A DNA stretch of 64,000 nucleotides from Gammaproteobacteria bacterium (GTDB taxonomy: Bacteria > Pseudomonadota > Gammaproteobacteria > Eutrophobiales > Eutrophobiaceae): NCBI GenBank assembly GCA_963422205.2, contig CAXMWX010000007.1, forward strand, positions 149,508 through 213,507. The letters are read 5' to 3'. This document shows positions 8,996 to 33,669 of this stretch, piece after piece. The notes beneath the pieces were generated by a model. That model was not told where the DNA came from. It worked only from the letters and a program-made list of their open reading frames with translations, and made no database searches. Position 1 is the stretch's first letter. Each line of letters opens with the position of its first letter. Position numbers and translations under genes: made by a program.

Positions 8996-9075
8996 CCACA
9001 CCCATAACAAAACCATTAACACAACCATGACAAGCCCCCACATCAAAACCATCACAGCACTGAGATAATAAACCC

Positions 9076-16097: not shown

Positions 16098-16169
16098 CAG
16101 AAGACAGAAGTCAGAAGACAGAGGACAGAATGTATGCTCTGTCTTCCGTTCTCCATCTTCCGTCCTCTG
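16098..16169. repeat. Heptamer-repeat palindromic cassette H1 (terL/portal junction)
   Basis: CAGAAGA CAGAAGT CAGAAGA CAGAGGA CAGA..TCTGTCT TCCGTTC TCCATCT TCCGTCC TCTG. Confidence 0.9.
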
Positions 16170-16171
16170 CT

Positions 16172-17582: not shown

Positions 17583-17680
17583 GGGCGCTTTCCAGAGCGG
17601 CGCGAATGGCCGCTGCGGTATCCTGACTGACACCGGCCTTCTTAACTTGTGTCTCGGCCTTCTCGGCCATTGCCACTGCC
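17575..17680 (-). pseudogene. 3' remnant of Mu gp27-like (DUF3486-type) small terminase
   Basis: KAVAMAEKAETQVKKAGVSQDTAAAIRAALE directly upstream of and overlapping the terL start; 5' part absent. Confidence 0.65.
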
Positions 17681-18187
17681 TTGGGGCTGAACACCGAGGC
17701 AACTGAGACGCAGATTATTGAGCGTATCAACGCACTCAAAGCAGAGAAACAAACCGCACTCAATTCCGCACAGAGTCCCGACCCAGCCAGGTTTGTACCG
17801 ATAGAGACGCACCAGTTGGCCTTGAACCGGGCGGAGAGTGCCGAGGCCACGCTTACTAAGAACAAGGAGGCGGCCTTAACCGCCGAAGGTCAGGCGCTGG
17901 TGGAGCAGTCGATTACCGATGGCAAGATGGCGCCTGCCAATAAAGATCATTACCTGGCTCTGTGTCGGGACGAGGCCGGGCTTGAGACCGTCAAGCAACT
18001 GATGGCCGCCGCCCCCGAAGATACTGACGGAGGACAACGGGTACGGGTGGCGCGCCTGGCAAACCTGAGACGGCGCTCAATACCGAGGAGTCTCAGGTGG
18101 CCCGCCTTGCTGGGTCTGTCGGATAAAGCCATGACCGAGGCCAAGGCCGCGCACACCGCACATACAACCACAGGAGCTAACCGATGA
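17681..18187 (+). pseudogene. 3' half of Mu gpI-like protease/scaffold gene
   Basis: LGLNTEATETQII..INAL, PDPARFVP and AL..DGK.APA motifs; N-terminal protease domain missing; local frameshifts 18010-18105. Confidence 0.8.
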
Positions 18188-19085
18188 TTATCACACCGCA
18201 GGCAATCACGGCCCTTTATCACAGGCTTTAACAAAATCTTTCAGGATGCGCTCGGCAGTGCCGAGACCCAATGGCAGCAGGTGGCCACGCAGGTGCCATC
18301 CAGCACCAAGTCCAACACCTACGGCTGGCTGGGCAAGTGGCCAGGCTTTCGGGAATGGGTCGGCGAGCGGGTGTTCAAGAACTTGAAAGCCCACAGCTAT
18401 CAGGTCACGAATAAAAAATACGAGTCCTCGGTGGAGGTCGGGCGTGATGAGATTGAGGATGATCAGATCGGCATCTATAGCCCGATGGTGATGGAGATGG
18501 GTCAGGAGGCGGCCAGGTTTCCCGATGAGTTGGTCTTTGGTTTGCTGGGCGGCGGGTTTCACGACCGCTTGCTATGACGGGCAGAACTTCTTTGATGCCG
18601 AGCATCCGGTGTATCCGAATGCCGATGGCACCGGTACGGCGGTGCTCATCTCCAACATGCAGGCGGGCAGCGAGACGCCCTGGTTTCTGCTGGACACGTC
18701 CCGTGCCTTGAAGCCGCTGATCTATCAACTCCGCCGGGCGCCGGCGTTCAAGGCCATGACGGACACGGCGGATGAGGGCGTGTTCCTGCGCGATGCCTAT
18801 CGTTACGGGGCGGATTTGCGCTGTAATGCGGGCTTTGGCTTCTGGCAGATGGCTTATGGTTCAAAAGCGGATTTAACCCTGGAGAACTATGTGGCGGCCC
18901 GTACCGCGATGATGGGCTTTACTGGTGATGGCGATAAGAAACTCAAAGTTAGTCCTAAGTTACTGGTCGTACCGCCCTCGTTGGAAGAGAAGGCATTGAA
19001 GATACTGAAAGCCGAGCTCATCGACGGTGGCAACAGCAACGTCTACCGCAACACCGCCGAGGTCTTGTGTTGCCCGTATCTGTGA
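18184..19085 (+). pseudogene. Mu gpT-like major capsid protein, two apparent frameshifts (~18215, ~18548)
   Basis: MIITP, YGWLG..P..REW.GER, CYDGQNFFD..HP, KPLIYQ.R and GFGFWQMAYGS motifs. Confidence 0.9.
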
Positions 19086-19087
19086 TT

Positions 19088-19184
19088 CAGAGGACAGATG
19101 ACTGAGGACAGAAGACAGTGGTTGTATGGCGCAGAGCGCCATTCTCTAAAATCTGTCCTCCGTCTTCCGACTTCCGTTCTCTGA
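19088..19184. repeat. Heptamer-repeat palindromic cassette H2 (capsid/gp36 junction)
   Basis: Four CAGARGA-like units, central ATGGCGC-AGA-GCGCCAT hairpin, four complementary units. Confidence 0.92.
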
Positions 19185-19185
19185 C

Positions 19186-19599
19186 ATGTATATCACACCA
19201 GCCGACATTGAGGCGCGCTTAGGTGCGGAGGACTATGCCGTACTGGTGGGCAGTGGTGAAGATGCCCGTGAGCGGGTAACCCAAGCCATAGCCGATGCCA
19301 GTGGCGAGATCGATGGTTATGTGGGTCAGCGCTATGCGCTGCCGCTTGAGCCGATACCGACAGCTATTCAGCGAGTAGCGGTGGATATCAGTATCTATCG
19401 CTTATCCGGTGATAGCCGGGTAACCGAAGATAAGCGCAAGCGCTATGAGGACGCGATTGCATTTTTGAGGGGTGTGGTACGAGGCGAAGTCAGCTTAGGC
19501 GCGCCCGAACAGGCCAATGATGTCGATGATGCACATCAGGACACGATGGCGGTGACATCCAGGGCGCGGCAGTTCCATCGGGATAACCGAACGTTTTGA
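19186..19599 (+). CDS. Mu gp36-like head-tail connector (DUF1320)
   Basis: MYIT..DI, AIADASGEIDGY...RY.LPL and RYEDAI.FL motifs. Confidence 0.88.
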   Translation: MYITPADIEARLGAEDYAVLVGSGEDARERVTQAIADASGEIDGYVGQRYALPLEPIPTAIQRVAVDISIYRLSGDSRVTEDKRKRYEDAIAFLRGVVRGEVSLGAPEQANDVDDAHQDTMAVTSRARQFHRDNRTF

Positions 19600-19632
19600 T
19601 TATTCACCTGTAACTTAACTAGAGGCATCATC

Positions 19633-20004
19633 ATGGCACTAAGACGTAAAAAGACCACGACAAGAGACGGCGCCACCGAGACCGGTGCAACCGCAGAAGA
19701 GACAACCCAGCCCAACGGCACGGACGAGCAGGGCGCCAGGGACGGCGCGATGGGTAAAGACAGCACGCTCAAGACCCGGGTGAAAGACCTGCCTGACGGG
19801 GTCACGCAGTATTGGCGTGGCGGGGTGGCACACACCAGGGACTGGCAGGCATGGCCGGTCGATGCCTTTACTCCTGAGCAACTGGAGAAGATCAAGGCCG
19901 ACCCGCGCATTCAGATGACAGAAACCGAAATACAGAAGACAGATTCAGATGACAGGGGTCGGAAGACGGAGGACAGAGGTCGGAAGACGAAGGACGGAGA
20001 GTAA
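19633..20004 (+). CDS. Mu-like prophage protein (HI1506-like domain); C-terminus encoded by cassette H3
   Basis: YWRGG.AH...FTPEQLEKIKADPRI motif; heptamer-derived tail. Confidence 0.6.
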   Translation: MALRRKKTTTRDGATETGATAEETTQPNGTDEQGARDGAMGKDSTLKTRVKDLPDGVTQYWRGGVAHTRDWQAWPVDAFTPEQLEKIKADPRIQMTETEIQKTDSDDRGRKTEDRGRKTKDGE

Positions 20005-20046
20005 AGTTGGTCATCTGTCGTCTGTCTTCTGACTTCAGTCTTCTGA
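19912..20046. repeat. Heptamer-repeat palindromic cassette H3
   Basis: About 12 purine-rich 7-mers followed by TCTGTCG TCTGTCT TCTGACT TCAGTCT TCTGA. Confidence 0.9.
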
Positions 20047-20441
20047 ACGCCGAGTTAGCCAGGCTATCTGCGCTTGACCTGAATGACTTGTTAGCAACCC
20101 TGGCCTTTGCTGGCGAAGTCCAGACCCGGTGGCGCTTGGCGACAGAAAAGGCAAGCCCTGCGGGGGAGGCCTGGCCTACTTGGTCAGAAGTCTATGCCGC
20201 CAGGCGTCACGGTGGCCATGCCCTGCTGGAGAATGAGGGCGCTCTGATTGACAGCATCGAGTCCGGCACAGACGGCGATACCGCCTTCTGGGGCAGTGAT
20301 CTGATCTATGCCGCCACCCATCAGTATGGAGACGATGACAGGAACATTCCGCAGCGGCAATACTTGGGCGTGAGCAGCAATAACAAGCGCGAGATGACAG
20401 ACTTAATCAATGCCTTTTTGAGTGGGGCGGCGCCAGCATGA
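20007..20441 (+). CDS. Phage virion morphogenesis protein (Mu gpG/P2 gpS-like); start uncertain
   Basis: P.G..W..WS..Y, GSDLIYAATHQYG and IPQRQYLG motifs; only a TTG inside H3 is available as start. Confidence 0.8.
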   Translation: MVICRLSSDFSLLNAELARLSALDLNDLLATLAFAGEVQTRWRLATEKASPAGEAWPTWSEVYAARRHGGHALLENEGALIDSIESGTDGDTAFWGSDLIYAATHQYGDDDRNIPQRQYLGVSSNNKREMTDLINAFLSGAAPA

Positions 20442-21085
20442 TCAATGCCTTGCTCGACCACATCATCCATACCCTGGCGCCGTTGTTCCCGGAGTCGGTG
20501 AGCATTGCTCGCTATAACGGTCGGTTTACCGAGCGGGACTTAGACCGCTTCGCTGGTCGGGCGCCCGCCCTGCTCATCTCCGCCCAGCGTCTGGAGGTGA
20601 CCGGCTGCAATGTGATACCGGTACAGACTCTGCACCCAGGCGACAGTGAAGAAGTGCTGCGCAAACGTATTGAAGGCAGGCTGCATTGCGCCATTGCCAT
20701 TTTGACCAAGGACAGGCCGGGTCAATCCCGCGATGCGGTGGCCCTTGAGTTGGTCAACACACTCATCATCACCCTGCCGCAGCAGACCTTTGATGCGCCC
20801 TTGAGCCGGGGTGTAACAGCAGATTCTATCCGGGCGCAGAACCTGCACACGGTATCCCTGGATAACAAGGCGGTGACCTTATGGGGCGTCACCTTTATCC
20901 AGCCTGTCCGCATGGACGTCGGTCAGCCGCCCGTGTTTGACACACCGGCCCGGGTGATGCTGGGCATTGAGCCGGAGATTGGCCCTGACCATGTGGACGA
21001 TTACACTGACATTCAGAGGACAGACTTGCCTGCGCGCAGCGCGCAAGCAGGGGACGGAGAACAGAGGACAGACGGGTATGAATAA
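20438..21085 (+). CDS. Mu gp37-like tail terminator/completion protein; 3' end extends into cassette H4
   Basis: Position before the spike gene; GRF...DL..APA and A.NL....LWGV pattern. Confidence 0.6.
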   Translation: MINALLDHIIHTLAPLFPESVSIARYNGRFTERDLDRFAGRAPALLISAQRLEVTGCNVIPVQTLHPGDSEEVLRKRIEGRLHCAIAILTKDRPGQSRDAVALELVNTLIITLPQQTFDAPLSRGVTADSIRAQNLHTVSLDNKAVTLWGVTFIQPVRMDVGQPPVFDTPARVMLGIEPEIGPDHVDDYTDIQRTDLPARSAQAGDGEQRTDGYE

Positions 21086-21164
21086 AATTATCCTTTATCT
21101 GACTTCTGTCGTCCGTATTCTGATTTCTGAATCTGTCTTCCGTATTCAGTCCTCCGGCATCTGA
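21014..21164. repeat. Heptamer-repeat palindromic cassette H4 with nested 27-bp GC hairpin
   Basis: CAGAGGA CAGA[CTTGCCTGCGCGCAGCGCGCAAGCAGG]GGA CGGAGAA CAGAGGA...pyrimidine arm ending TCTGA before the ATG at 21167. Confidence 0.9.
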
Positions 21165-21166
21165 AC

Positions 21167-21760
21167 ATGAGCGATGATCTCATCATGGACTTGGCTTTGC
21201 GGGTGGCCAAGTTGGAGCGGCAGGTGAATGATACCCTCATCACAGGTGTGGTGAGTGAAGTGCAGCATCGGCCCTATCGGGTGCGGGTGGATTATGGCAC
21301 GGCAGATGTGCCACAGACGACCGCCCTGCTGCCAGTTATCGTACCCCGTGCGGCCAGTGCCATTGCTTGGTGGCCACTGGAGGTGGGCGAAGCGGTGCTG
21401 GTTATCTCACCGGGTGGCAACACCCGCCAGGGCCGGGTACTGCCGGCGAACTATACCGAGACGCACCCGCAACCTGACGATGAGCCGGAGCAACTCATGA
21501 TGGCGTTCGGCCAGGGTAACCAACTGACATTAAATCGCACCACGGGCACGCTGCATCTCACCTTGAGCGGTGAGCTGGAGATTGATGCACCACAAAAAGT
21601 GCGGGTCAACAGCGCTACCCTGGAATGCTCGGGCGATATTCTCGATCAATTTGACAACAACAATCACCACATGCGGGCGATGCGAGATACCTATGATGGT
21701 CACACGCATACCGGTGATAATGGCGGCACCACCTCGGCGCCCCAGCAGGCGATGGGTTAG
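21167..21760 (+). CDS. Baseplate spike protein (P2 gpV-like)
   Basis: WWPLEVGEAVLVISPGG motif and C-terminal HTH (His-x-His) metal motif. Confidence 0.88.
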   Translation: MSDDLIMDLALRVAKLERQVNDTLITGVVSEVQHRPYRVRVDYGTADVPQTTALLPVIVPRAASAIAWWPLEVGEAVLVISPGGNTRQGRVLPANYTETHPQPDDEPEQLMMAFGQGNQLTLNRTTGTLHLTLSGELEIDAPQKVRVNSATLECSGDILDQFDNNNHHMRAMRDTYDGHTHTGDNGGTTSAPQQAMG

Positions 21761-21764
21761 AACG

Positions 21765-22127
21765 ATGCGCACGATTAGCCCGTCAGCCATGCACAAAGAG
21801 ACCGGTCAAGCAATCGGTGGCCTTGACTTTCTGCGCCAGCGCTTTCTTGACGCGGTCAATACCGAGCGTGGCAGCTTAGTGGGGGCGCGCGACTAAGGCA
21901 TGCGCCTGGATGACTTGATTGACCGCAACATGGATAACGACTTTGCCATGCGGGTCTTTGCTCGTCTGGCGATGGGAATCCTGCACGAGCCCAATGGATT
22001 GTTTGACTTAGAGATCACGCAATTTGCCTTGACGCCGGATAAGAGCCACACCGCGACAGTAACTGTTCATGCCCTCTGGCAAGGGCAGGACATCCGCCTG
22101 CACACACCCGTGAGGACGGCAGCATGA
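21765..22127 (+). pseudogene. Baseplate wedge protein (P2 gpW/gp25-like) with in-frame TAA at 21894-21896
   Basis: T..GS.VGARD*G..L.DLID, where homologues read RDYG; both halves are in the same frame. Confidence 0.8.
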
Positions 22128-22152
22128 GCGCTTTTACCGCCGCCATTGACCT

Positions 22153-22203
22153 TATGTACAGGAAGTACGGTAGGCCGCGGGTGCAGGGACGCACAGGAGC
22201 GGC
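22153..22203 (+). repeat. Double-hairpin CAGG(G)A-loop element interrupting a duplicated gpJ 5' end
   Basis: TATGTACAGGAAGTACGGTAGGCCG..GTGCAGGGACGCAC..GCGGC; first half matches the 23247 element. Confidence 0.75.
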
Positions 22204-22215
22204 AAGGAGTTCAGC

Positions 22216-23079
22216 ATGAACAGTGTGCTGACTACGGCTATTGATTTAGCACAGTTACCAGAAGTTGAATACGTGCCGCAGCTCACTCATGATCAGATCA
22301 CTGTCGAGACCATCCAGTGGTTACGGGATGAGTATGATATGGAACTGGCCGGCCCGGAGGCGCCAGACTACCGCATCATCCGTGCCTGCAACTACCGCGA
22401 GATGCTGCTGCGCCAGCAGTACAACCGTGCCTGTCTGAACCTGACCTTGAAACATGCAACAGGTGAGTATCTCGATCATATCGGTATGACGTACCACCGC
22501 ACTGTCAGATTACCGGATGAGGGCGATGCGGCCTATCGCCAGCGCATTGCCTTAAGCCCGGAAGCGGTCAGTGTGGCCGGCCCCGATGGGGCTTATGTCT
22601 GGCATGTACTCAACGTTGACCCCTCGATACGCGGGGCCAAGGCGCATGAGTTGGCCGAGGGTCAGGTCGGGATTTATGTGCTGACCAACAGCGGTGAGTT
22701 AAGCGATGACTTGCAGGCACGGATTGAATCCGTGTTCAACGATCAATCCATTGGCCAGCCGCAGGCCGTGCGCCCGATTGCCATCCGGGTGTCCGTGCTG
22801 CCCTGCCAGATGCTGGACTATGCGATCAATGCCAGGCTTATCCTTGCGGGTGGGGTGGCCGCAGATGAGGTCAAGGCACACGCCTTGGCCGCCATCCAAG
22901 CCTATACCAATCAGCAGATGCAGATAGGTGGTCGGGTGGTGCGCTCTTTCCTTGACCATCATCTGCATGTTCCCGGTGTCATACAAGTCACCTTGACCGG
23001 CTGGCACAACATTGAAGCCACCTTGACCCAGGCGCCCCGTTGTACCGCCATACATATCACCACCGAGGTGGGTGCATGA
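22216..23079 (+). CDS. Baseplate J-like protein (P2 gpJ)
   Basis: IDLAQLP, YRE.LLRQ..N, A.G..LDHI, SVAGP.GAY and VRP motifs. Confidence 0.92.
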   Translation: MNSVLTTAIDLAQLPEVEYVPQLTHDQITVETIQWLRDEYDMELAGPEAPDYRIIRACNYREMLLRQQYNRACLNLTLKHATGEYLDHIGMTYHRTVRLPDEGDAAYRQRIALSPEAVSVAGPDGAYVWHVLNVDPSIRGAKAHELAEGQVGIYVLTNSGELSDDLQARIESVFNDQSIGQPQAVRPIAIRVSVLPCQMLDYAINARLILAGGVAADEVKAHALAAIQAYTNQQMQIGGRVVRSFLDHHLHVPGVIQVTLTGWHNIEATLTQAPRCTAIHITTEVGA

Positions 23080-23699
23080 GCAGTTTATTGCCCAGTCAGT
23101 ATGCCCTGCGAGAACGCGCCTTGGAAGCGGCCGCTGGTGAGCGGCTGAATGCGCTTGTCTCACCTGCCTTAACCCTGTGGGATGCCGATAACTGCCCGGC
23201 TGACCACCTGCCACAATTAGCCGCCGCCTTAAGTGTGGACTTCTGGTATGTACAGGACGTACGGTATGCCGGTTTTGCAGGAGCAAAAACCGGTGATGAC
23301 TGGCCGGAGGCAGTAAAGCGTCAGATGGTCAAGCAAGCACCGGAGTTGCATCGCTTGAAAGGCACCCCGGCAGGGCTGATCAAAGCACTGGCTATCCTGG
23401 GTTATGGTCACAGTTACTTGCGCGAGTTTGTGGCCTGGAAACACGATGGCACGTTTACCCGCAACGGCGCAATTGCCTACGGCCAGACCCTTACCTGGTA
23501 TCAGTTTGATGTCTATCTGCAAGCCGGTGCTATCCCCGATGCCAATACACTGAACACGCTGCGCCGTTACATTCAGGCATTTAAGCCCACCCATGCGCGC
23601 TTAAGGCGCATCTACTATGCCTCTTGTAAACACAACGGGCAGCACCAGCGCGATGGTCAGATTAACTACGATGGAGGCTTAAGCTATGGCGGACATTAA
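23076..23699 (+). CDS. Phage tail protein I (P2 gpI) carrying a 16-aa in-frame insertion
   Basis: SLLP, LWD...CP...LP.LA.ALSVD.W, WPE..KR and H..KGT motifs. Confidence 0.9.
   Translation: MSSLLPSQYALRERALEAAAGERLNALVSPALTLWDADNCPADHLPQLAAALSVDFWYVQDVRYAGFAGAKTGDDWPEAVKRQMVKQAPELHRLKGTPAGLIKALAILGYGHSYLREFVAWKHDGTFTRNGAIAYGQTLTWYQFDVYLQAGAIPDANTLNTLRRYIQAFKPTHARLRRIYYASCKHNGQHQRDGQINYDGGLSYGGH
23247..23294 (+). repeat. 48-bp double-hairpin element inserted in frame in gpI
   Basis: TATGTACAGGACGTACGGTATGCCGGTTTTGCAGGAGCAAAAACCGGT; removal restores SVDFW-DDWPE. Confidence 0.9.
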
Positions 23700-24756
23700 C
23701 GAGCAATCACAGTGGGAGGATACTGTCTACCAACTGGAGACCACCGACCCGGTCGTCGGCGGCCCGGACGGCATCAGTAACACCCAGGCCAAGCAACTCG
23801 CCAACCGCACGGCCTGGCTGAAATCCCAGGTGGAGCAACTGCTATCTGAACTGAATGCTATCGGTATTGATGATGTTTCTGGTTTGCCAGCGGCCTTGAA
23901 TGGCAAGGCGGCCAGCGCTCATAACCACAATGCCAGTGAGATTACCCGTGGCACCTTGAGTCTGTCCCGGCTCTCTACCGCCAGCCGCTATACCGATGCC
24001 AGCCCCAGTAAGCTGGCCCTGGCCAGCGCTGTGCGCTCGCTCTATGACTGGGTGGTCAGCCAGCTCACCACCAAGGCCGAGGCCGATGCGCTGACCCGGC
24101 ATCTGGGTAATGCCCATGCCCACGGGGAGTATGCGCCGCTTAGCACCTATAACCGCAGCCAGCAGGCGCAGGATGGGCGCCTGACCACCCTGGAGGGTAC
24201 GACCGAGAAACGCCATGTGCAGACCATCACCATCGCCGGCTCGACCAATTACCTGTATCCGGTGTTCTGGCAGTTTCCCGATAATCGCTTCGGCGTAGGC
24301 AAACTGGAGATCAGCCGCCATTACGGCTGGAACCAGGGCGTGCTTCCCAACGACTACGACCAGCCCTATCGGGTGGCGTCCCTGCTTTTGCAACTAGAGG
24401 GCAATGATGCGCCCTGGGGCGGTGATGCTGAGTATATGAAGGTCTTGAAATACTTCCGTCAATACCACAAAACCGCCTCGCACCTGCGCTATATGGGCTA
24501 TGCCAGGCGAGAGAAAATCAATGCCACCGGGGTAGCGCTGTACGGCGCTGCCAATACCAACTACACCCACAGCGGGATTTATCTGCGGGGTGGCGGGCTG
24601 CGCTACCGCTTCTCATCGAACTGGCCGCTGAACCTGATACGCCTGGCCGATGAGAACAGTGCCACCGCCAGAGCGGTACTGACTGAGCAATACAACACCC
24701 GCTGGTATGTGCAGCGCATACCGTTCACCGCCCTGGAAGAGCCGACCGAGGATTAG
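23686..24756 (+). CDS. Tail fibre protein
   Basis: W...VYQLETTDPV.GGPDG.SN.QAKQLANRT.WLK N-terminus; position after gpI. Confidence 0.85.
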   Translation: MADINEQSQWEDTVYQLETTDPVVGGPDGISNTQAKQLANRTAWLKSQVEQLLSELNAIGIDDVSGLPAALNGKAASAHNHNASEITRGTLSLSRLSTASRYTDASPSKLALASAVRSLYDWVVSQLTTKAEADALTRHLGNAHAHGEYAPLSTYNRSQQAQDGRLTTLEGTTEKRHVQTITIAGSTNYLYPVFWQFPDNRFGVGKLEISRHYGWNQGVLPNDYDQPYRVASLLLQLEGNDAPWGGDAEYMKVLKYFRQYHKTASHLRYMGYARREKINATGVALYGAANTNYTHSGIYLRGGGLRYRFSSNWPLNLIRLADENSATARAVLTEQYNTRWYVQRIPFTALEEPTED

Positions 24757-24759
24757 ACC

Positions 24760-25179
24760 ATGACTGAGGAGATCACACTGACCCACGATGAGGCGGTGGC
24801 CCTGGCCGAAGCCGAGGTCGCCCACATCCATAAAAAACGCCTGCGGGCAGACATCAAAGCTGAAGCCGGCGATCCCTTGTCCTTGCTCGGCACCACGGCC
24901 GATGCCACACAGCTACTGCTGTATCACGTTGCGATGTTGGTCAGCCACCTGCACACTGCCACCACGCTGGCCGAAGTCAGGGAGGCCGCCGCCCCCTTTG
25001 CTACCCTCGCCAGTCCCTTTCTCGCCAGGGTTGAATCCGGCGAGGTCAGACTGCCCTATCAGACCAAAGGACTGGAAGTGGTGATGGGCGATATTGAACG
25101 CAGGGCGAGCGCCGTGGCCGAGGCACTCGCCAACCACACACCCACAACCCCATCTGATACCACAGGAGAGTCATTATGA
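24760..25179 (+). CDS. Hypothetical phage protein (tail-fibre associated)
   Basis: ORF with RBS between the fibre and sheath genes. Confidence 0.6.
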   Translation: MTEEITLTHDEAVALAEAEVAHIHKKRLRADIKAEAGDPLSLLGTTADATQLLLYHVAMLVSHLHTATTLAEVREAAAPFATLASPFLARVESGEVRLPYQTKGLEVVMGDIERRASAVAEALANHTPTTPSDTTGESL

Positions 25180-26354
25180 CGATGCGAAACAAACTCCACG
25201 GTGTTGAGCACCGCTACTTACCCCTGGACAAACCCATTGAGGTGGTGGCCGCTTCCACCATTGCCTTGACCGCCACGGCGGACGATGCCGATGCTGACCA
25301 CTTCCCCTTAAACACACCCGTCTTGGTCAGTCAGCCCGATGACATCGCCCAGGCCGGCACCCGTGGCACCTTGGCGAATGCCCTTAACGACATCTATGCC
25401 CAGCAGCCCACCTTAGTCATCGTGGTGCGGGTAGCCGAGGCCGATACCGAGACTGGTACCACCGCCGAGCAGCAGGGCGCACAGGTGGCTCATCTCATCG
25501 GCACGGTGGATAACGAGACCAACACCTTCACCGGCATGCAGGCGATTCTGAACGCTGAGGCTACCCTCGGCATGATTCCTCGGCTGTTTATCTGTCCGGG
25601 CTTCAGTCAGATAGAAGCGGTGGGGACAGCATTGGAAGCCCTTGCCAAAAAGCTCCGGGGGATGGCCATCATTGATGGGCAATCCGATGGCTTATCCGCC
25701 GCTATACAGGATAAGAACCGCTACGATGAGGTGCTGTTTGTCGATAACGGGATTCGGCTGTTTGATACTGATAGCCAGGCTTATATCACCCGTGAGGCCT
25801 CCGCCTCGGTGGCCGGGCATATCGTGCGGATTGATTATGCGCATGGCTACTGGCACAGCCCCTCCAACCATCGGCTCTACGGCATCACCGGGCCGGGTGT
25901 TTCGGTGGACTACACCCGCGGCTCCAAGACCTGTCTGGCCAATGTCTTGTCTGCCAATGACATCGGTACCGTGATAAATAAGGAAGGCGGGCCGGTGTTC
26001 TGGGGCAATCGGCTGGCGAACGGGATGCTCATCCCGCACCAGCGACTGCGCTATCTGGTGGGGGATTCCATCATGGCGGCCCATGAGGAGTACGTGGACA
26101 GAAACTTAACCACCAGCTACTACGAGTTTATGATTGACCGGGTCAACCGCTTTATCCGCCGGCTAACACTCGCTGGCAAGATTGCTGGCGGGGAATGCTG
26201 GCTGAATGCGGAGCTGAACAAAGCCGCCGCTGAGGCCAACACGGCCTACTTTGATTATAAGCTGGGCTTCTTTAATGTCGCTGAGACGCTTGTTTTCAGG
26301 CAGCACGTCACCGCCGAGTACAACAACCAGATTATTGACCGCATTGCAACCTGA
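25176..26354 (+). CDS. Contractile tail sheath protein (P2 FI-like)
   Basis: HGVE, ADDADA..FPLNTPVL, TGMQA, PR....PG, GYWHSPSN and FWGNR motifs. Confidence 0.93.
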   Translation: MTMRNKLHGVEHRYLPLDKPIEVVAASTIALTATADDADADHFPLNTPVLVSQPDDIAQAGTRGTLANALNDIYAQQPTLVIVVRVAEADTETGTTAEQQGAQVAHLIGTVDNETNTFTGMQAILNAEATLGMIPRLFICPGFSQIEAVGTALEALAKKLRGMAIIDGQSDGLSAAIQDKNRYDEVLFVDNGIRLFDTDSQAYITREASASVAGHIVRIDYAHGYWHSPSNHRLYGITGPGVSVDYTRGSKTCLANVLSANDIGTVINKEGGPVFWGNRLANGMLIPHQRLRYLVGDSIMAAHEEYVDRNLTTSYYEFMIDRVNRFIRRLTLAGKIAGGECWLNAELNKAAAEANTAYFDYKLGFFNVAETLVFRQHVTAEYNNQIIDRIAT

Positions 26355-26446
26355 GGACAGATGGCGGGGGACAGAAGACAGATTGTAAGGAGCGGCTTCG
26401 CCGCACTTTATTGTCCGTCCTCCGTCTCCTGTCCTCAGTCCTCCGA
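26351..26446. repeat. Heptamer-repeat palindromic cassette H5 (sheath/tube junction)
   Basis: Four purine 7-mers, central GCGGC-TTC-GCCGC hairpin, four complementary units. Confidence 0.9.
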
Positions 26447-26461
26447 ATCAGGAGCACGACT

Positions 26462-26977
26462 ATGAGTATAAAAATCTTACAAGGCATGAACTGCTTTATT
26501 GACGGGCAGGAGTTTATCGGCGTGGCCACCAAGGCCGCTATCATCTACCCGCAACCGAAGATGAAGGATGTCGCCAGCCCAGGGCTGGCCGGGATGCGCA
26601 AGCTACAGACCGGCAAATGGGAGCTGGAGGACTTGAAAGTGACCTTGCAGGACTACCCGCCCGAGGTGATTGGCCTGGTGGGTCATCCTGAGAGCTCAGA
26701 GAAACCCGTGCAGTTGATTGGTGTGATGGGGCCGGAGGATCCCCGCACCGTGACCGTGACCATCACCGGCCCCTGGAACACCCTGGAAGGCGATGAGTGG
26801 GCGGATGACAGTGACAGTTCTTTAAGTTTCGGCATCTTCCCGGAAGTCTACACGCTGACCATCAATGGCAAAGAGGTCGTGTTCTACGACTGCCAGGCCA
26901 ATGAAGTCAGGCTAAATGGCAAATCCATGACGGCCGATCTCAACAAGCGCCTAAAGCGCACCACCGGATTGGTGTAA
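26462..26977 (+). CDS. Tail tube protein (P2 FII-like)
   Basis: L...N.FIDG..F.G start and Y.L.ING C-terminal pattern; GGAG RBS; follows sheath. Confidence 0.8.
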   Translation: MSIKILQGMNCFIDGQEFIGVATKAAIIYPQPKMKDVASPGLAGMRKLQTGKWELEDLKVTLQDYPPEVIGLVGHPESSEKPVQLIGVMGPEDPRTVTVTITGPWNTLEGDEWADDSDSSLSFGIFPEVYTLTINGKEVVFYDCQANEVRLNGKSMTADLNKRLKRTTGLV

Positions 26978-26995
26978 CCCAGAGGAGAGAACACA

Positions 26996-27232
26996 ATGGA
27001 GAAAATCACACTCGCCTATCCGATTGAGGATGAAGGCAAACAGATAAGCACACTTGAGTTGCGCCGGGCAAGGGTCGCCGATCTGGAAGTCATGGAGCGA
27101 GAGAGCGGTAACATGGCCAAGAGCATTGTCCTGCTCTCGCAACTGAGCGGTCTGTCCACTGATGCCATTCGCCAACTGGATGCGGCCGACTTTGATGCAG
27201 CCAGTGAGCAGGTGGCGGGTTTTTTAGCCTAA
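26996..27232 (+). CDS. Tail assembly chaperone (gpE/gp41-like)
   Basis: ITL.YPI, LRR..V.DL and LDAADF....V.GFL motifs. Confidence 0.88.
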   Translation: MEKITLAYPIEDEGKQISTLELRRARVADLEVMERESGNMAKSIVLLSQLSGLSTDAIRQLDAADFDAASEQVAGFLA

Positions 27233-27375
27233 GGGCGGAGAAGATGCGCCCCATGCTGGCCAATCTGGCGGTGGTGTTTCACTGGTCTCTTGAAGACATG
27301 AAGCAGATGCCACTGGAGGAGTTAATGGCCTACCACACGCTGGCGCTGGAGCGGGCGGTGCTTAGTCGAAAATAG
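27220..27375 (+). other. -1 programmed frameshift site T TTT TTA and gpE'-like extension
   Basis: Slippery heptamer at 27220-27226 in correct phase; -1 frame reads MLANLAVVFHWS......MPLEELM to a stop at 27375. Confidence 0.88.
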
Positions 27376-27619
27376 AACGAACTGTCTCAATCATTTCCAT
27401 CATCATGCCAATGACCCAAACAAAGCACAGCATCGCCAGGCCCGCTACCAGACCGCCCGCTAAGGCTGCACCCAGAAACGTGCCAACACTGGTGCCGTAT
27501 ACCGAGCACATAAACCAGCCACTTAAGATGGCTATGGCTATCACCGGGCTCAAGATGATGCAACAGAAACGCCACACTCCTCTGCGGTATGCTTGGCTAA
27601 GATCAGAGTCATTATCCAT
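27362..27619 (-). CDS. Small two-TM membrane protein (moron-like, antisense to the tail operon)
   Basis: 85-aa ORF with two hydrophobic helices filling the gap between gpE' and tape measure. Confidence 0.6.
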   Translation of the reverse strand: MDNDSDLSQAYRRGVWRFCCIILSPVIAIAILSGWFMCSVYGTSVGTFLGAALAGGLVAGLAMLCFVWVIGMMMEMIETVRSIFD

Positions 27620-27633
27620 AGGCCAAGTATAGC

Positions 27634-30033
27634 ATGACCCAGCTCAATGTCTCAGCCGAAGTCAATCTGGTGGATAAATTCAGTGCCTCGGCTGCGAAGA
27701 TTGCCGGGGTGTCTGAAAAACTGGCTGGACGTCTGCACGAGGGACAGAAAAAGCTGCGCGCCCTGGGGCGTAAAGGCCAAGCGATAGCGCACCTGAAAGC
27801 CCTCTCGGCACGCCTGGGTAAAACGGCTGCTGAGATGGATAGAGCGAAACAGCGCACAGCCCAGCTAGGCCGGGAGTTGGCCGCCACCACCAAGCCGACT
27901 AAACAACTGCAACGGCAGTTTGAGGCGGCCAGGAAACATGCTGACAACCTCAAACGTCAGCACCAGCAGCAACGCGATGAGCTGAAACGCCTGCGCGGTG
28001 AGTTGCGTGGTGCAGGCATAGATACCCGTAACTTAGGTGAGGCCCAGCGTAAGATTGCCAGTAATATGGCCGCCGCTACCCGCAAGATGGAAGGCATGGC
28101 CAAACAAGCCGATAAGGTGGCCGCTGCCCGGGCCAACTACGACCGCACCCTGCAACAAGCCGCCAACATCTCCCTGGTGGCCGGTGGCGTGCATCGCCTC
28201 GGCCAAGGGGCTTTGAGTATGGTAGCAGAGCCCATTGCCCAGATGCGTACCGTTGCGCGTTCCCGCGGCGAGCTGGCCTCGCTGGGCATGGATAAAAGCG
28301 GGGTGGATCAGATCGCCGCCCGTGGTCGGGAGCTGTCCACCCAACTGGCCGGGGTGACCACCGCCGCCTTTGTCTCAGCAGCGTATGACATCAAGAGCGG
28401 CATTGCCAGCTTAGATGATGCCGGGGTCGCCGATATGACGGCGATGGCGGCGCTGACCGCCAAGGCCACCAAGGCCGAGGTGGGGCAGATGACCAGTTTT
28501 TTTGCCACCAGTTATGGGTCGTTCAAGGACAGTCTGTATGAGACCATCAGTAACCGGGACTTCGGCAACATCCTCTCGGCCTCGCTGGCCAAGTCGGTGC
28601 AGCAGTTCAAGACCGATGGGGCGAAGATGCAGCAGGCCATTCAGTCGATGGGCTCAGGATTGGCTGAATCCGGCATCTCACTGGCCGAGCAGTTCACCGC
28701 CCTGGGTATGTTGCAGCAAAAGATGGAAGCCGGTGTGGCTGGCACCACCATGAAGGCGCTGGAGCGCTCGGCTGCCCAGGCACAAGCCCGCTTTGAGAAG
28801 ATGGGCATGTCGATTGAAACCCTGGATGAGAACGGCAACCTGCGCAGCCTGCCGGCGTTGATAGCAGAGATGCAGGCTGCTTTTGGTAAGGACTACACAT
28901 CCGAGACGGGTGCCATCATTCAGGAGGCCTTCGGCACGGCTGAGGCGGTGGAGTTTTTCAAGGCCTTGTGGGGGCAGCAGGATGCCTTCCGGGAGAACAC
29001 CCAGGCACTGGCAGAGGCACAGCAACAGGGCACGGCCTTTACCCAGACGATGGCATCGGCAATGGATGCCAATATGGATGCCCGGTTGCATATCCTTGAG
29101 CAGCGCTTTGCCGTCATCAAAGAACGGCTGGGCAGCGCACTCATCCCCGCCCTGGAGAGACTGATGCCGTGGCTTGAGAAAGCTGCCGGATGGATCAGCC
29201 GCCTGGTCGATAACAACAGCCGCTTGACCAGGTTTTTCATGGCGGCGGTGGCGGGTGTGGGTTTGATTGCCACGGTCATCGCCCCGGTGATTACCGCCGT
29301 TGCCGCCTTGACCACAACGCTGGCTTATCTCGGCTATGCCGCCAGAAAATCCGCTGCCGAGACTGCCCTGGCCTCGGCTGTGATGGGTGGTGGCAAGGGC
29401 AGGGGCTTACGCGGCATGGCGGGCAAGGCTGGCGGGATGCTCAAAGGCAAACTGGGGCTGGTGGGCGCAGGCATCGGTACCCTGGCCATTGGCACGACCT
29501 TGATGGATGATACATTGAGCGGCGGGGAGAAAGCCGCCCAGATCAGCCGCGAGGCGGGCGGCATCGGCGGGGCGCTGGCCGGGGCAGCAGCGGGTGCGGC
29601 CTTAGGCTCCATTGTACCGGTGGTGGGTACTGCTATTGGTGGCATTGCGGGCGGCATCATCGGTGGTATGTCCGGCAACGCGCTGGCCGATGGCCTGGTC
29701 GGGTTATTCTCCTCGGATGATGGGGCAAAACGCACACCGGACACATCTGCTACCACACTCGCCTCTGCTGCCCTGATGGGCACAGCACTGGCTGCGGCCC
29801 CCGTAGCTGCCCAGTCGGACGAGGCAGCACTACCCGCATCCCTGCCTGTTATCACCGCAGCACAAGCACCGCCCAGCACACAACACACCGATAACAGCAC
29901 CCACAGCTACCACATCACCGTCACCCCCAGCCCCGGCATGGATGAGCAGCGTCTGACTGAGCTGGTGGTCGAGAAACTCAAGGCAGCCAACCAGGCCACC
30001 GCCCGCCGTGCCCGTGCCCGCCAGCATGACTGA
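27634..30033 (+). CDS. Tail tape measure protein
   Basis: 799-aa Ala/Gly-rich helical protein after the chaperone; AAYDIKSGI and T.KATK core. Confidence 0.93.
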   Translation: MTQLNVSAEVNLVDKFSASAAKIAGVSEKLAGRLHEGQKKLRALGRKGQAIAHLKALSARLGKTAAEMDRAKQRTAQLGRELAATTKPTKQLQRQFEAARKHADNLKRQHQQQRDELKRLRGELRGAGIDTRNLGEAQRKIASNMAAATRKMEGMAKQADKVAAARANYDRTLQQAANISLVAGGVHRLGQGALSMVAEPIAQMRTVARSRGELASLGMDKSGVDQIAARGRELSTQLAGVTTAAFVSAAYDIKSGIASLDDAGVADMTAMAALTAKATKAEVGQMTSFFATSYGSFKDSLYETISNRDFGNILSASLAKSVQQFKTDGAKMQQAIQSMGSGLAESGISLAEQFTALGMLQQKMEAGVAGTTMKALERSAAQAQARFEKMGMSIETLDENGNLRSLPALIAEMQAAFGKDYTSETGAIIQEAFGTAEAVEFFKALWGQQDAFRENTQALAEAQQQGTAFTQTMASAMDANMDARLHILEQRFAVIKERLGSALIPALERLMPWLEKAAGWISRLVDNNSRLTRFFMAAVAGVGLIATVIAPVITAVAALTTTLAYLGYAARKSAAETALASAVMGGGKGRGLRGMAGKAGGMLKGKLGLVGAGIGTLAIGTTLMDDTLSGGEKAAQISREAGGIGGALAGAAAGAALGSIVPVVGTAIGGIAGGIIGGMSGNALADGLVGLFSSDDGAKRTPDTSATTLASAALMGTALAAAPVAAQSDEAALPASLPVITAAQAPPSTQHTDNSTHSYHITVTPSPGMDEQRLTELVVEKLKAANQATARRARARQHD

Positions 30034-30034
30034 T

Positions 30035-30134
30035 CGGAGGACAGATGACGGAGAATGGAGGACAGAAAATAAAGTATGCCGCAGAGCGGCATCCTCTACA
30101 GTCTGTCCTCGGTCTTCTGTCGTCTGATTTCTGA
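30035..30134. repeat. Heptamer-repeat palindromic cassette H6 (tape measure/gpU junction)
   Basis: Central ATGCCGC-AGA-GCGGCAT hairpin; arms abut the upstream TGA and downstream ATG. Confidence 0.92.
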
Positions 30135-30536
30135 ATGCCGACCCAACTGATGCTCGGCGAGTTCCCCTTCAGCCTCGCTACCACGGAGTATGACCGGCTG
30201 AACCGAACACTTAGCTGGCGCTGGCCATCCCAGACACGCCTGAACCGAAAGCCCGCCCTGCAATACCAGGGGCCTGAGATCATCACCTTGCAGTTAAACG
30301 GCACGATACACGTCAAAGCAGCCAGGGACTTAACGTTACCTGAGGCCATGCAGCGTGAGGCCGACAAGGGTGAACCGCTGGCGCTGCTGGTGGGTAATGG
30401 CGAACTGGCTGCCCGCTACGGCGGGCGCTGGGTGATGACCGAGCTAGCGTTCAATGACAGCGATCTGCTCGGTGATGGCACCCTGCTCACCATTGCCTTC
30501 AGCATGACCTTGAAACAATGGGGCGAAGACAGATGA
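30135..30536 (+). CDS. Phage tail protein (P2 gpU-like)
   Basis: LG.F.FSL.T, WRW....R....PALQY.GP....I.L.G motifs. Confidence 0.9.
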   Translation: MPTQLMLGEFPFSLATTEYDRLNRTLSWRWPSQTRLNRKPALQYQGPEIITLQLNGTIHVKAARDLTLPEAMQREADKGEPLALLVGNGELAARYGGRWVMTELAFNDSDLLGDGTLLTIAFSMTLKQWGEDR

Positions 30537-30660
30537 CAGACGGCAGAATACAGAGGACAGAACATAAAGATGGCGCAAAGCGCCATGCCGCCAGTCTGTC
30601 TTCAGTTCTCCGTCCCCTGCTTGCGCGCTGCGCGCAGGCAAGTCTGTCCTCCGTCATCCG
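30526..30660. repeat. Heptamer-repeat palindromic cassette H7, read in frame as the gpX N-terminus
   Basis: Central ATGGCGC-AAA-GCGCCAT hairpin; nested 27-bp hairpin 30616-30642 is the exact reverse complement of 21025-21051. Confidence 0.9.
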
Positions 30661-30859
30661 TACTCAGAATGGCGATATGCTCGATGCGCTATGTCACCAG
30701 CACTATCCCGACATCAAACCATCAGAGGCCATGCCCGTTGTCCTGGCGGCTAACCCCGGCCTGGAACAGCAACCAGCGGTGTTGCCCGAGGGCATGACGA
30801 TAACCCTGCCCGACATCCCAAGGCCAGCGCCCGAAGCGGCTATTGAGTTGTGGAGTTAG
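30533..30859 (+). CDS. Phage tail protein X (P2 gpX-like) with cassette-derived N-terminal extension
   Basis: RT..GDMLDALC..HY, VLAANPGL, LP.G..I.LPD and LW motifs; ATG overlaps the gpU stop. Confidence 0.85.
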   Translation: MTDGRIQRTEHKDGAKRHAASLSSVLRPLLARCAQASLSSVIRTQNGDMLDALCHQHYPDIKPSEAMPVVLAANPGLEQQPAVLPEGMTITLPDIPRPAPEAAIELWS

Positions 30860-32148: not shown

Positions 32149-32169
32149 TATGCTGAACCCTTTATCGGC

Positions 32170-32218
32170 ACCGGTTTTTGCTGCTGCAAAATCGGCATAC
32201 CGTACATCCCTGTACATA
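32170..32218 (-). repeat. 49-bp double-hairpin element frameshifting the MTase
   Basis: Near-identical reverse complement of 23247-23294; removal restores EPFIG-MGGIF. Confidence 0.9.
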
Positions 32219-33546: not shown

Positions 33547-33669
33547 ATGAGCGCCGTGATGTTTGATACGCTGAAATTTACCCGTCGACTGAAAGATGTC
33601 GGTGTGTCGGTGTTGAGTGGGGCGATAGCAGTCCATCGCAAGAGGCAATGGGTGGCGGCAGGCGTGTAG
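33547..33669 (+). pseudogene. Truncated third DUF1640-like paralog
   Basis: [20 protein letters not shown] then diverges and stops. Confidence 0.8.

What the first reader, a model, noticed from the sequence alone, without database searches (positions are those of the whole stretch)
19126..30586. Compensatory base-pair change in the central hairpin of the heptamer cassettes
Seen: H2 has ATGGCGC-AGA-GCGCCAT (19126-19142) and H6 has ATGCCGC-AGA-GCGGCAT (30076-30092), a G-C to C-G swap in otherwise homologous context. H7 has ATGGCGC-AAA-GCGCCAT with a loop change only, and H5 has GCGGC-TTC-GCCGC. Inference: the structure rather than the sequence is conserved, as expected for a protein-recognised ssDNA or RNA hairpin. 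Palindrome self-correction by template switching is a non-selective alternative.
Basis: partly seen in the sequence, partly recalled or inferred. Interest (0 to 1): 0.7.

Follow-up and report, generated by a model that had tools for sequence, protein, structure and literature searches.

The report
Heptamer-armed hairpin cassettes, covarying cap
The small GC hairpin keeps its base pairing through matched changes on both sides, and it caps long hairpin cassettes built from 7-base repeats that sit between prophage genes and also inside this bacterium's own ribosomal RNA genes.

Summary
The three 17-nt hairpins and the GCGGC-TTC-GCCGC hairpin lie where stated, and H2 and H6 differ by a G-C to C-G swap.

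In 21 distinct copies from this genome, three related genera, one viral contig and one metagenome contig, 6 of 7 stem pairs change on both sides. 97.3% of cells pair, against 83.5% in shuffles.

The hairpin is the apical cap of cassettes whose arms are inverted arrays of the heptamer GACAGAN. The window holds seven, all at gene boundaries of a contractile-tail prophage.

The same genome has such cassettes in 16S rRNA, in the 16S-23S spacer, and at the 23S helix-9 and helix-45 positions. The helix-45 copy carries a PF05635 gene.

The published Coxiella helix-45 intervening sequence has the same heptamer in a stem cut by RNase III. My best reading is portable RNase III-type hairpins with a register-setting cap.

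"Structure conserved" is supported. "Protein-recognised" is not shown. DNA-level palindrome correction is not excluded: cassettes lie in both orientations relative to transcription, and the sense strand folds better in only 8 of 15.

This scan has met the heptamer-arm class before in other genomes. The covarying cap and the sharing between prophage and rRNA genes are what is added here.

The parts
16098..16170 (-). Cassette H1, between the terminase-like gene (16172-17053, -) and the portal gene (14515-16077, -). It has heptamer arms and an 8-nt AT-rich loop, with no GC cap.
   Evidence: RNA fold of the - strand -40.4 kcal/mol, z -6.29
19087..19184 (+). Cassette H2, between the capsid-like gene (stop 19083-19085) and the head-tail adaptor gene (ATG 19186).
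   Evidence: fold -42.4 kcal/mol, z -4.59
19126..19142 (.). Central cap of H2: ATGGCGC-AGA-GCGCCAT.
19908..20048 (+). Cassette H3: a solo left arm (about 19908-19943) followed by a full cassette (19944-20048), with no GC cap. ORF 19633-20004 runs through the left arm. ORF 20007-20441 starts at a TTG in the loop.
   Evidence: fold -54.5 kcal/mol, z -6.09
21012..21165 (+). Composite cassette H4. Part a carries a second hairpin type (21025-21051, CTTGCCTGCGCGC-AGC-GCGCAAGCAGG). Part b has an AT-rich centre. ORF 20438-21085 ends inside the cassette. The baseplate gene starts at ATG 21167.
   Evidence: (I1)
26351..26441 (+). Cassette H5, between the sheath gene (stop 26352-26354) and the next gene (ATG 26462, which has its own AGGAG).
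   Evidence: fold -53.8 kcal/mol, z -6.10
26392..26404 (.). Central cap of H5: GCGGC-TTC-GCCGC. Judged by its flanks it lies in the opposite orientation to H6.
30034..30134 (+). Cassette H6. The tape-measure stop codon (30031-30033) and the next gene's ATG (30135) directly flank the base of the stem.
   Evidence: fold -56.2 kcal/mol, z -7.71
30076..30092 (.). Central cap of H6: ATGCCGC-AGA-GCGGCAT.
30525..30668 (+). Composite cassette H7. Part a has the cap at 30570-30586. Part b carries the second hairpin type (30616-30642), an inverted copy of the H4a stretch: 61 nt, 95% complementary.
   Evidence: (I1); fold of part a -42.2 kcal/mol, z -5.37
30570..30586 (.). Central cap of H7: ATGGCGC-AAA-GCGCCAT.

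Best explanation
The 'heptamer cassettes' are long hairpin elements of the kind that forms rRNA intervening sequences (IVSs). A 5' array of GACAGAN units faces a 3' array of NTCTGTC units, usually closed by a short GC hairpin with a 3-nt loop.

Shown here:
- The same family fills gene boundaries of a contractile-tail prophage.
- In the same genome it also replaces hairpin tips in 16S rRNA and at the helix-9 and helix-45 positions of 23S rRNA, and sits in the 16S-23S spacer. The helix-45 copy carries a PF05635 gene.
- In relatives it fills spacers next to tRNA genes.
- The pairing of the central hairpin is kept through changes on both sides at 6 of 7 pairs.

Inferred:
- In the transcript each cassette folds into a stem of about 25-37 pairs, with a mismatch every 7th position. 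RNase III cuts this stem, as was shown for the Coxiella helix-45 IVS, whose stem holds the same heptamer.
- In rRNA this removes the insert. In the prophage operon it would cut the polycistronic mRNA between genes, or the insert is simply tolerated.
- The GC cap acts as a nucleation and register clamp. The arms are tandem repeats and could pair in registers slipped by 7 nt, or with a neighbouring cassette. A unique, tight apical hairpin makes the right fold form first. That would explain why its pairing, rather than its sequence, is kept.
- The arms change by gain and loss of whole units.
For: Anatomy: 7 cassettes in the window, all at gene boundaries. 8 of 8 folded cassettes have z -4.5 to -7.7.

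Same family in stable-RNA genes of the same genome:
- 16S is 1639 nt against a 1533-position model. A hairpin at model positions 176-200 carries a 75-nt insert flanked by the heptamers.
- 23S is 4342 nt. It has inserts between E. coli positions 130/149 and 1163/1186, both bounded by heptamer arms.
- The second insert holds the genome's only PF05635 match, E 3.6e-27, in a 125-aa open frame.
- A further cassette lies just before the spacer tRNA-Ile.

Relatives: cassettes or arms abut tRNA genes in 5 of 5 loci checked.

Published analogue: in PMC4990558 the Coxiella helix-45 IVS has tandem GACAGAT/GACAGAA units. Coxiella and E. coli RNase III cut inside its 28-bp stem, with the 5' site at the start of the first repeat (passages and sections 3, 14, 15 read).

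This genome has an RNase III gene.

Covariation of the cap:
- 16 copies found without a structure model: 97.1% of cells paired against 86.1 +/- 2.0; 9 cells changed on both sides against 2.0 +/- 1.2.
- 21 copies: 6 of 7 pairs changed on both sides (2 of 500 shuffles); covariation score 0.480 against 0.206; slid controls 0.03-0.13.
- Half-way states occur beside the finished ones. ATGCCAC/GCGGCAT in this genome stands beside ATGCCAC/GTGGCAT in G047. ATACCGC/ACGGCAT here stands beside ATACCGC/GCGGTAT in G007.

The arms are not kept by compensation. Heptamer position 7 is Watson-Crick paired in 10 of 50 cases, G.U in 12 and unpaired in 28.

Unit gain or loss: two paralogous copies differ by exactly one 7-nt unit and by nothing else in the cassette, while their flanks differ at 8 positions.
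Against: - No RNA data exist for this organism. The run search gave only DNA-type contigs of the same organism and conserved rRNA parts of relatives. Cleavage is therefore inferred from one published analogue.
- The sense strand folds better than the antisense strand in only 8 of 15 cassettes: 6 of 7 in the window, 2 of 8 elsewhere.
- Isolated mismatches read sense G.U 17, sense A.C 11, other 29.
- The cap lies in either orientation relative to the genes. The loop is purine-rich in the sense strand in 6 copies and pyrimidine-rich in 5.
- The two imperfect caps of known gene direction (C14:163322-163412 and C14:171420-171512) read A.C in the sense RNA.
- Of the 16 two-armed cassettes, 11 have this cap. 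The helix-45 copy holds a gene in its place, H4 has an AT-rich centre and a second hairpin type, and three others (H1, H3, the spacer copy) have no GC cap, so the cap is not required.
- Some caps decay: one with a G.A mismatch, one with a bulge, one with the 3' half missing.
- Six of the 21 rows came from a covariance model that rewards pairs, and related rows inflate the cell-based measures.
Confidence: 0.55

Rival explanations
1. The pairing is kept at the DNA level without any function. The 17-nt cap is a short perfect palindrome. A change in one half is copied to the other by intramolecular template switching during replication (quasipalindrome correction), so 'compensatory' changes arise without selection.
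For: - The cassettes fold about equally well on both strands; the sense strand is better in 8 of 15.
- The cap lies in both orientations relative to transcription.
- Imperfect caps read A.C in the sense RNA in 2 of 2 copies with known gene direction.
- The flanks are a mosaic of a few modules in either orientation, and one copy has near-palindromic flanks. This fits strand switching within the hairpin.
Against: - Template switching should also perfect the arms. Yet the 7th heptamer position stays unpaired in 28 of 50 cases.
- All single-sided transitions read G.T rather than A.C when the element is oriented by its own flanks and loop: 6 to 0 in copies whose orientation is unambiguous, and 8 wobble cells in all. 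A strand-blind process does not predict this. The count is small and partly rests on hits from the structure model.
- rRNA copies must fold as RNA to be tolerated.
Confidence: 0.22
2. The cap is a single-stranded DNA hairpin read by a recombinase or transposase that moves the cassette, as REP hairpins are read by RAYT, IS200/IS605 ends by TnpA, or integron attC sites by the integrase.
For: - The copies are dispersed and lie in both orientations.
- A 61-nt stretch is shared, inverted, by two cassettes 9.5 kb apart at 95%.
- The element has its own polarity: an A-rich left flank, a purine loop and a CCTCT-type right flank.
- G.T is tolerated on that strand.
Against: - No Y1 transposase was found in a genome that is 98% complete.
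- No gene is consistently linked to the cassettes. PF05635 occurs once.
- 5 of 16 two-armed cassettes lack the cap.
- No target-site duplication could be defined and no empty site was found.
Confidence: 0.08
3. The cap together with its T-rich flank is a weak intrinsic transcription terminator.
For: The consensus scan flags the caps of H6 and H7 on the - strand and of H5 on the + strand. Each is followed by a tail such as ACTTTATTTT.
Against: - The region gives 26 terminator-like sites against 12.2 +/- 3.5 in shuffles, so the criterion is loose.
- For H6 and H7 the flagged strand is antisense to the operon.
- On the flagged strand the imperfect caps would read A.C.
- The copy inside 23S would then terminate rRNA synthesis.
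- The tail starts with A and C and is interrupted.
Confidence: 0.04
4. The cap is an RNA hairpin bound by a specific protein, for example the PF05635 four-helix-bundle protein encoded in the helix-45 copy.
For: Pairing is conserved while the stem sequence varies, and the loop is a short purine-rich triplet (AGA, AAA, AGG, AAG, GAA) in most copies. The gene and the cassettes share one genome.
Against: - Loops also include GCA, CGG, TAT and ATT.
- The orientation is antisense to the genes in about half of the copies.
- Nothing tested here speaks to binding.
Confidence: 0.06

Closest known systems
Helix-45 intervening sequence of Coxiella burnetii 23S rRNA (PMC4990558; passages and sections 3, 14, 15 read)
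   Same: The same heptamer (GACAGAT/GACAGAA) in tandem within terminal inverted repeats that form the stem. An S23p/PF05635 gene lies in the loop, as in this genome's helix-45 copy. The number of units varies between strains, as between the two paralogous copies here. The stem is cut by RNase III.
   Different: The window cassettes lie in mRNA spacers of a prophage, not in rRNA. They carry no gene. They are about 80-150 nt rather than 428 nt. Most are closed by a covarying GC hairpin that the paper does not describe.
rRNA intervening sequences in general (Salmonella, Leptospira, Yersinia, Campylobacter, Alphaproteobacteria), as reviewed in PMC4990558 section 3
   Same: An extended stem-loop replaces a small loop at the helix-9 and helix-45 positions of 23S. 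Distribution is sporadic, horizontal transfer is suspected, and RNase III excises the insert without religation.
   Different: Here one repeat family supplies the 16S insert, two 23S inserts, the spacer copy and at least 11 non-rRNA sites in one genome. I found no paper describing IVS-type stems outside rRNA.
Intercistronic RNase III sites of phage T7, and Neisseria Correia (NEMIS) repeats as RNase III substrates (both recalled, not read here)
   Same: Hairpins between genes of a polycistronic transcript are cut by the host RNase III. Correia elements are dispersed inverted-repeat elements.
   Different: Those hairpins have no tandem-heptamer arms and no link to rRNA inserts. Cleavage is not shown here.
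Heptamer tandem repeats of bacteria: TAACTGA repeats of Beggiatoaceae, Cyanobacteria and Bacteroidetes (PMC4679880, abstract and outline seen); STRR repeats of cyanobacteria (recalled)
   Same: Intergenic tandem 7-nt units with a patchy spread across phyla. [quoted passage not shown]
   Different: Those are direct arrays with a different unit; the abstract counts one indirect repeat among 170 sets. Here the arrays are paired and inverted, and capped.
REP elements with RAYT transposases, and quasipalindrome template switching (both recalled)
   Same: Short GC-rich imperfect palindromes dispersed in intergenic space. Palindrome halves can be homogenised at the DNA level.
   Different: No Y1 transposase was found and there is no GTAG-type head. 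The cap is embedded in long repeat arms.

Membership tests
rRNA intervening sequence (IVS) | Lies in an rRNA gene and replaces the tip of a helix (23S helices 9, 25, 45; also 16S) | tested here: not met
   The seven window cassettes lie between protein-coding genes. The feature is met by four other copies of the same family in this genome: 16S model positions 176-200, the 23S gaps at E. coli 130/149 and 1163/1186, and the spacer. Helix numbers are inferred from those coordinates.
rRNA intervening sequence (IVS) | Complementary termini that form a long stable stem | tested here: met
   8 of 8 folded cassettes have z -4.5 to -7.7 and 23-37 Watson-Crick pairs.
rRNA intervening sequence (IVS) | Excised from the precursor by RNase III | not testable with these tools
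   No RNA run of this organism was found. An RNase III gene is present. Cleavage is shown only for the Coxiella analogue (PMC4990558).
ORF-bearing IVS (S23p / PF05635) | A four-helix-bundle gene in the loop | tested here: not met
   PF05635 matches once in the genome, in the helix-45 copy. No window cassette holds an ORF. Similarity of the cap region to the inside of that IVS is not significant: the best case is 14 of 17 identical, p about 0.05 before correction for 10 tests.
MITE-like dispersed inverted-repeat element | Many dispersed copies with terminal inverted repeats | tested here: met
   16 two-armed and 4 one-armed sites on 5 contigs. The ends read TTCAGA...TCTGAA in most copies.
MITE-like dispersed inverted-repeat element | Target-site duplication, and empty sites in close relatives | tested here: inconclusive
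   No clear duplication was seen. A second sample of the same organism holds the same cassettes. No close relative of the prophage was found in 120 other genomes of the family. A distant paralogous tail cluster has a 24-nt spacer after the sheath gene, against 107 nt here.
REP / RAYT | A Y1 transposase gene in the genome | tested here: not met
   PF01797 gives 0 matches; the control rings in 6 of 14 genomes.
Intrinsic terminator | A GC-rich stem followed at once by a run of U on the transcribed strand | tested here: inconclusive
   H5 is flagged on the sense strand. H6 and H7 are flagged only on the antisense strand. H2 is not flagged.
   The caveats are relatedness of the rows, six rows found with a structure model, and the chosen orientation.

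The most novel reading that the evidence does not exclude
The cassettes are one mobile family of portable RNA-processing hairpins that passes between stable-RNA operons and phage genomes. Prophages would then be the long-sought vehicle that spreads rRNA intervening sequences between bacteria.

Inside the phage operon the folded hairpin also does translational work. It brings the upstream stop codon, and the GAGGA of the first arm unit, next to a downstream start codon that has no ribosome-binding site of its own. This is the case at H2, H4 and H6.

The G.T-only pattern of half-changed caps on the element's own strand would mean that the family multiplies through a single-stranded intermediate of fixed polarity.
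Probability: 0.15. Interest if true: 0.8.

Novelty: new variant of a known kind. Interest (0 to 1): 0.55.

Why it matters
How intervening sequences reach rRNA genes, why they sit at the same few helices, and why they are scattered among strains have been open questions since about 1990. Here one genome shows the same repeat-built stem in 16S, twice in 23S, in the spacer and at seven gene boundaries of a prophage. The same design also occurs on about 30 distinct viral contigs and in many phyla. This points to a single insertable hairpin family, and it makes two ideas directly testable: that phages carry it, and that RNase III reads it. The covarying cap gives a small, defined structure on which RNA-level and DNA-level explanations can be told apart by experiment.

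Tried and rejected
- Rfam: no family matches the cassettes. Only sub-threshold miRNA-precursor models match, which reflects the long hairpin shape.
- Metagenome scan for arm + ATGNNGCNNNGCNNCAT + arm: of 105 loci, only 2 (one distinct cassette) were real. The rest were one conserved gene and chance matches.
- Viral scan with one arm plus the cap: of 72 loci, only 2, on one contig, were clearly real.
- Paired-arm patterns in five relatives: 0 matches. The first try, with two adjacent gaps, also gave 0 and may not have been parsed.
- BLAST of H6 against named phages: no match.
- A relative of the gene after H6 in viral contigs: none found.
- Empty-site search: no close relative of the prophage in 120 other family genomes. 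Contigs of a second sample of the same organism carry the same cassettes without change.
- RNA evidence: no RNA run holds this organism.
- Derivation of the short cassettes from the gene-bearing helix-45 copy by deletion: similarity is not significant.
- Sense-strand G.U excess as a proof of RNA-level selection: 10 to 1 in the window but 7 to 10 elsewhere, so 17 to 11 overall. This is not decisive.
- Reverse-transcriptase genes exist on contig C7, but nothing links them to the cassettes.

Full report
**1. The observation**

- 19126-19142 ATGGCGC-AGA-GCGCCAT
- 30076-30092 ATGCCGC-AGA-GCGGCAT
- 30570-30586 ATGGCGC-AAA-GCGCCAT
- 26392-26404 GCGGC-TTC-GCCGC

The degenerate pattern finds 3 sites against 0.33 expected; 1 of 100 shuffles reaches 3. 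Each site lies at the centre of a cassette.

H2 and H6 differ inside the 17 nt only by the G-C to C-G swap. If two differences fell at random among the 17 positions, the chance that the second hits the partner with the complementary base is about 1/16 x 1/3. That figure is my own reckoning.

**2. Anatomy**

The window holds seven cassettes:
- H1 16098-16170
- H2 19087-19184
- H3 19908-20048
- H4 21012-21165
- H5 26351-26441
- H6 30034-30134
- H7 30525-30668

Each has a 5' array of GACAGAN units and a 3' array of the complement.

From 99 units collected in this genome's cassettes, positions 1-3, 5 and 6 are nearly fixed. This is partly by the way the units were collected. Position 4 is A in 71, G in 16 and T in 11. 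Position 7 is any base.

In the folded sense strand, position 7 is Watson-Crick paired in 10 of 50 cases, G.U in 12 and unpaired in 28. Position 4 is unpaired in 20 of 50. The other positions pair in 74-92%. The arms are therefore blocks of conserved sequence with a mismatch about every 7 bp. They are not kept by compensation.

Six window cassettes and two rRNA cassettes fold with z -4.5 to -7.7, and 0 of 200 shuffles fold as well in each case.

H4 and H7 are composite. They share a second hairpin type in a 61-nt stretch that is 95% complementary between them (pair I1).

**3. Setting in the window**

PHROG matches show a contractile-tail prophage: portal and terminase on the - strand, then capsid, adaptor, neck, baseplate, fibre, sheath, tape measure and further tail genes on the + strand. 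All seven cassettes lie at gene boundaries.

- At H2, H4 and H6 the downstream start is placed by a PHROG match beginning at residue 1, 7 and 2 respectively. It lies 0-1 nt after the last base of the cassette, and no purine-rich ribosome-binding site precedes it.
- At H6 the stop codon 30031-30033 and the ATG at 30135 flank the base of the stem directly.
- H1 and H5 are followed by a GAGGA or AGGAG outside the cassette.
- At H3 and H4 the neighbouring reading frames run into the arms.
- A distant paralogous tail cluster in the same genome has a 24-nt spacer with TAAGGAGG after its sheath gene, against 107 nt here.

**4. The same family in stable-RNA genes**

A scan of the whole genome (2.99 Mb, 14 contigs) for three or more in-phase units finds 22 arrays. 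Together, these make 16 two-armed sites and 4 separate one-armed sites.

Four of the two-armed sites lie in the one assembled rRNA operon:
- 16S is 1639 nt. The short hairpin at Rfam model positions 176-200, just after the conserved UAAUACCGCAU, carries a 75-nt insert bounded by UUCAGAGGACAGA and CUGUCCUCUG.
- 23S is 4342 nt. BLAST against an E. coli 23S leaves gaps at 130/149 and at 1163/1186, both filled by heptamer-armed inserts. I infer these to be helix 9 and helix 45. A third gap of about 820 nt lies at 1918.
- The helix-45 insert holds the only PF05635 match of the genome (E 3.6e-27, 125-aa open frame).
- A fourth cassette lies in the spacer just before tRNA-Ile.

In relatives, cassettes or single arms abut tRNA genes in 5 of 5 loci checked.

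**5. What is in print**

PMC4990558 was read as passages and as sections 3, 14 and 15. It describes the Coxiella helix-45 IVS as follows:
- It has three tandem GACAGAT units plus one GACAGAA ahead of the S23p gene.
- The number of units varies between strains.
- Both Coxiella and E. coli RNase III cut within that stem, with the 5' site at the start of the first repeat.
- Helices 9, 25 and 45 are named as the usual IVS sites.

Four full-text searches gave no paper that describes such heptamer-armed stems outside rRNA. PMC4679880, of which I saw the abstract and outline, describes direct TAACTGA heptamer arrays just upstream of start codons in Beggiatoaceae, Cyanobacteria and Bacteroidetes.

**6. 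Distribution**

- The three-unit arm pattern with up to 2 mismatches is found in 7 of 41 genomes (own plus relatives). Counts are 41 in the own genome, 130 in G020 and 14 in G019.
They come from many phyla, and many are inverted pairs. The 17 two-armed loci I picked all fold into long hairpins.
- A paired-arm pattern finds 40 loci on viral contigs, with 31 distinct centres.
- Earlier notes of this scan had already described the class in other genomes, including its link to PF05635 genes. I reached the rRNA link here independently.

**7. Covariation of the cap**

Of the 16 two-armed sites in this genome, 11 have the cap.

The first set was found through arms or through patterns with open positions. 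It comprised 16 rows (15 distinct): the 11 copies from this genome, two from G007, two from one viral contig and one from a metagenome contig. In a gapless alignment:
- 97.1% of cells pair, against 86.1 +/- 2.0 in shuffles (0 of 500 reach it).
- 9 cells are changed on both sides, against 2.0 +/- 1.2 (0 of 500).
- 3 pairs carry such a change (76 of 500 shuffles reach this, so not significant).

I then built a covariance model and searched 126 genomes of the family. Six had matches.

I looked at 6 of 8 places in G047, all 3 in G007, and one each in G020 and G130. I added six rows. I left out three: one copy with a 1-nt bulge, one lacking its 3' half, and the duplicate C14b.

With 21 distinct rows:
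- 6 of 7 pairs are changed on both sides (2 of 500 shuffles reach this).
- 18 cells are changed on both sides, against 3.9 +/- 1.5.
- 97.3% of cells pair, against 83.5 +/- 1.5.
- The covariation score is 0.480 against 0.206, and slid controls give 0.03-0.13.

Half-changed and fully changed forms of the same pair occur side by side. One G047 copy, next to a tRNA-Ala gene, has three pairs changed by transitions on both sides.

Limits of this test:
- The six added rows come from a model that rewards pairs.
- The rows are related to one another.
- I oriented the rows by loop and flanks. On the opposite strand the 8 wobble cells would be A.C, and pairing would fall to about 92% by my arithmetic.

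**8. RNA or DNA?**

- Gene direction is known for 15 cassettes. The sense strand folds better in 8: 6 of 7 in the window and 2 of 8 elsewhere.
- Isolated mismatches are sense G.U 17, sense A.C 11 and other 29. The split is 10 to 1 in the window and 7 to 10 elsewhere.
- The loop is purine-rich in the sense strand in 6 copies and pyrimidine-rich in 5. The three copies in stable-RNA operons (16S, 23S helix 9, and the G047 copy beside tRNA-Ala) all have purine loops in the sense strand.
- When the copies are oriented by their own flanks, all single-sided transitions read G.T and none read A.C. This is 6 to 0 in copies of unambiguous orientation. It hints at one functional strand, but the number is small.
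- No Y1 transposase was found. RNase III is present.
- Two paralogous copies differ by exactly one 7-nt unit, with 0 substitutions in the cassette and 8 in about 130 nt of flank.
- Contigs of two samples of the same organism show the cassettes unchanged.

**9. Verdict**

The cassettes work like, and are built like, RNase III-excised intervening sequences. The window copies are not IVSs in the strict sense, because they lie in mRNA spacers.

RNase III cleavage, the register-clamp role of the cap and any role in translation are all inferences. DNA-level palindrome correction remains a live rival for the compensatory changes.

Noticed in passing
L001 6123-6942 (G000:C5, 23S rRNA at E. coli position about 1918): An insert of about 820 nt in 23S with a sub-threshold group I intron match (RF00028, 40.4 bits against a gathering score of 50, E 1.1e-08). 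It lies at about the position where the Coxiella paper names intron Cbu_L1917.
   Followed up: partly
window 17121, 18012, 18036, 18101, 18218, 18547: Contigs of the best DNA holder lack one letter at each of these six places. The apparent truncation of the terminase, protease and capsid frames in 17070-18577 may therefore be an assembly error rather than gene decay.
   Followed up: partly
window 23255-23295 and 32169-32209: A 41-nt inverted repeat, 93% complementary, with arms 8.9 kb apart (I3). Contigs have loose ends exactly at 23255 and 23295, and depth rises two- to four-fold over 23460-25475, the tail-fibre region. This could be a recombining or shared fibre module.
   Followed up: no
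window 8568-9499 and 33547-33605: Repeated units of about 440 nt (88% alike), with a conserved start ATGAGC...TTTGA.AC..TGAA.TTTACCCGTCG that recurs at 33547 (D1, D2, D8, D11). This looks like a small paralogous gene family.
   Followed up: no
window 11829-13019: Several families of direct repeats with GG.G.D-type codons (D4, D10, D14, D15). They suggest a calcium-binding repeat protein.
   Followed up: no
window 54001-58000: G+C falls to 42-45% against about 57% elsewhere in the window. This may be a foreign island.
   Followed up: no
G020 loci L149-L160: In a related genus the same heptamer occurs mostly as long one-sided arrays (GACAGAY and variants, up to about 20 units): 38 forward and 92 reverse matches. 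Some inverted pairs there have variable positions that do not match between the arms.
   Followed up: partly
G000:C7:767605-827751: Three reverse-transcriptase (PF00078) matches lie on a contig of lower G+C. No link to the cassettes was seen.
   Followed up: no
window 19186, 21167, 30135: Three tail or neck genes start 0-1 nt after a cassette and have no ribosome-binding site of their own. The nearest GAGGA or GGAGGA is the first unit of the 5' arm, across the base of the stem.
   Followed up: partly
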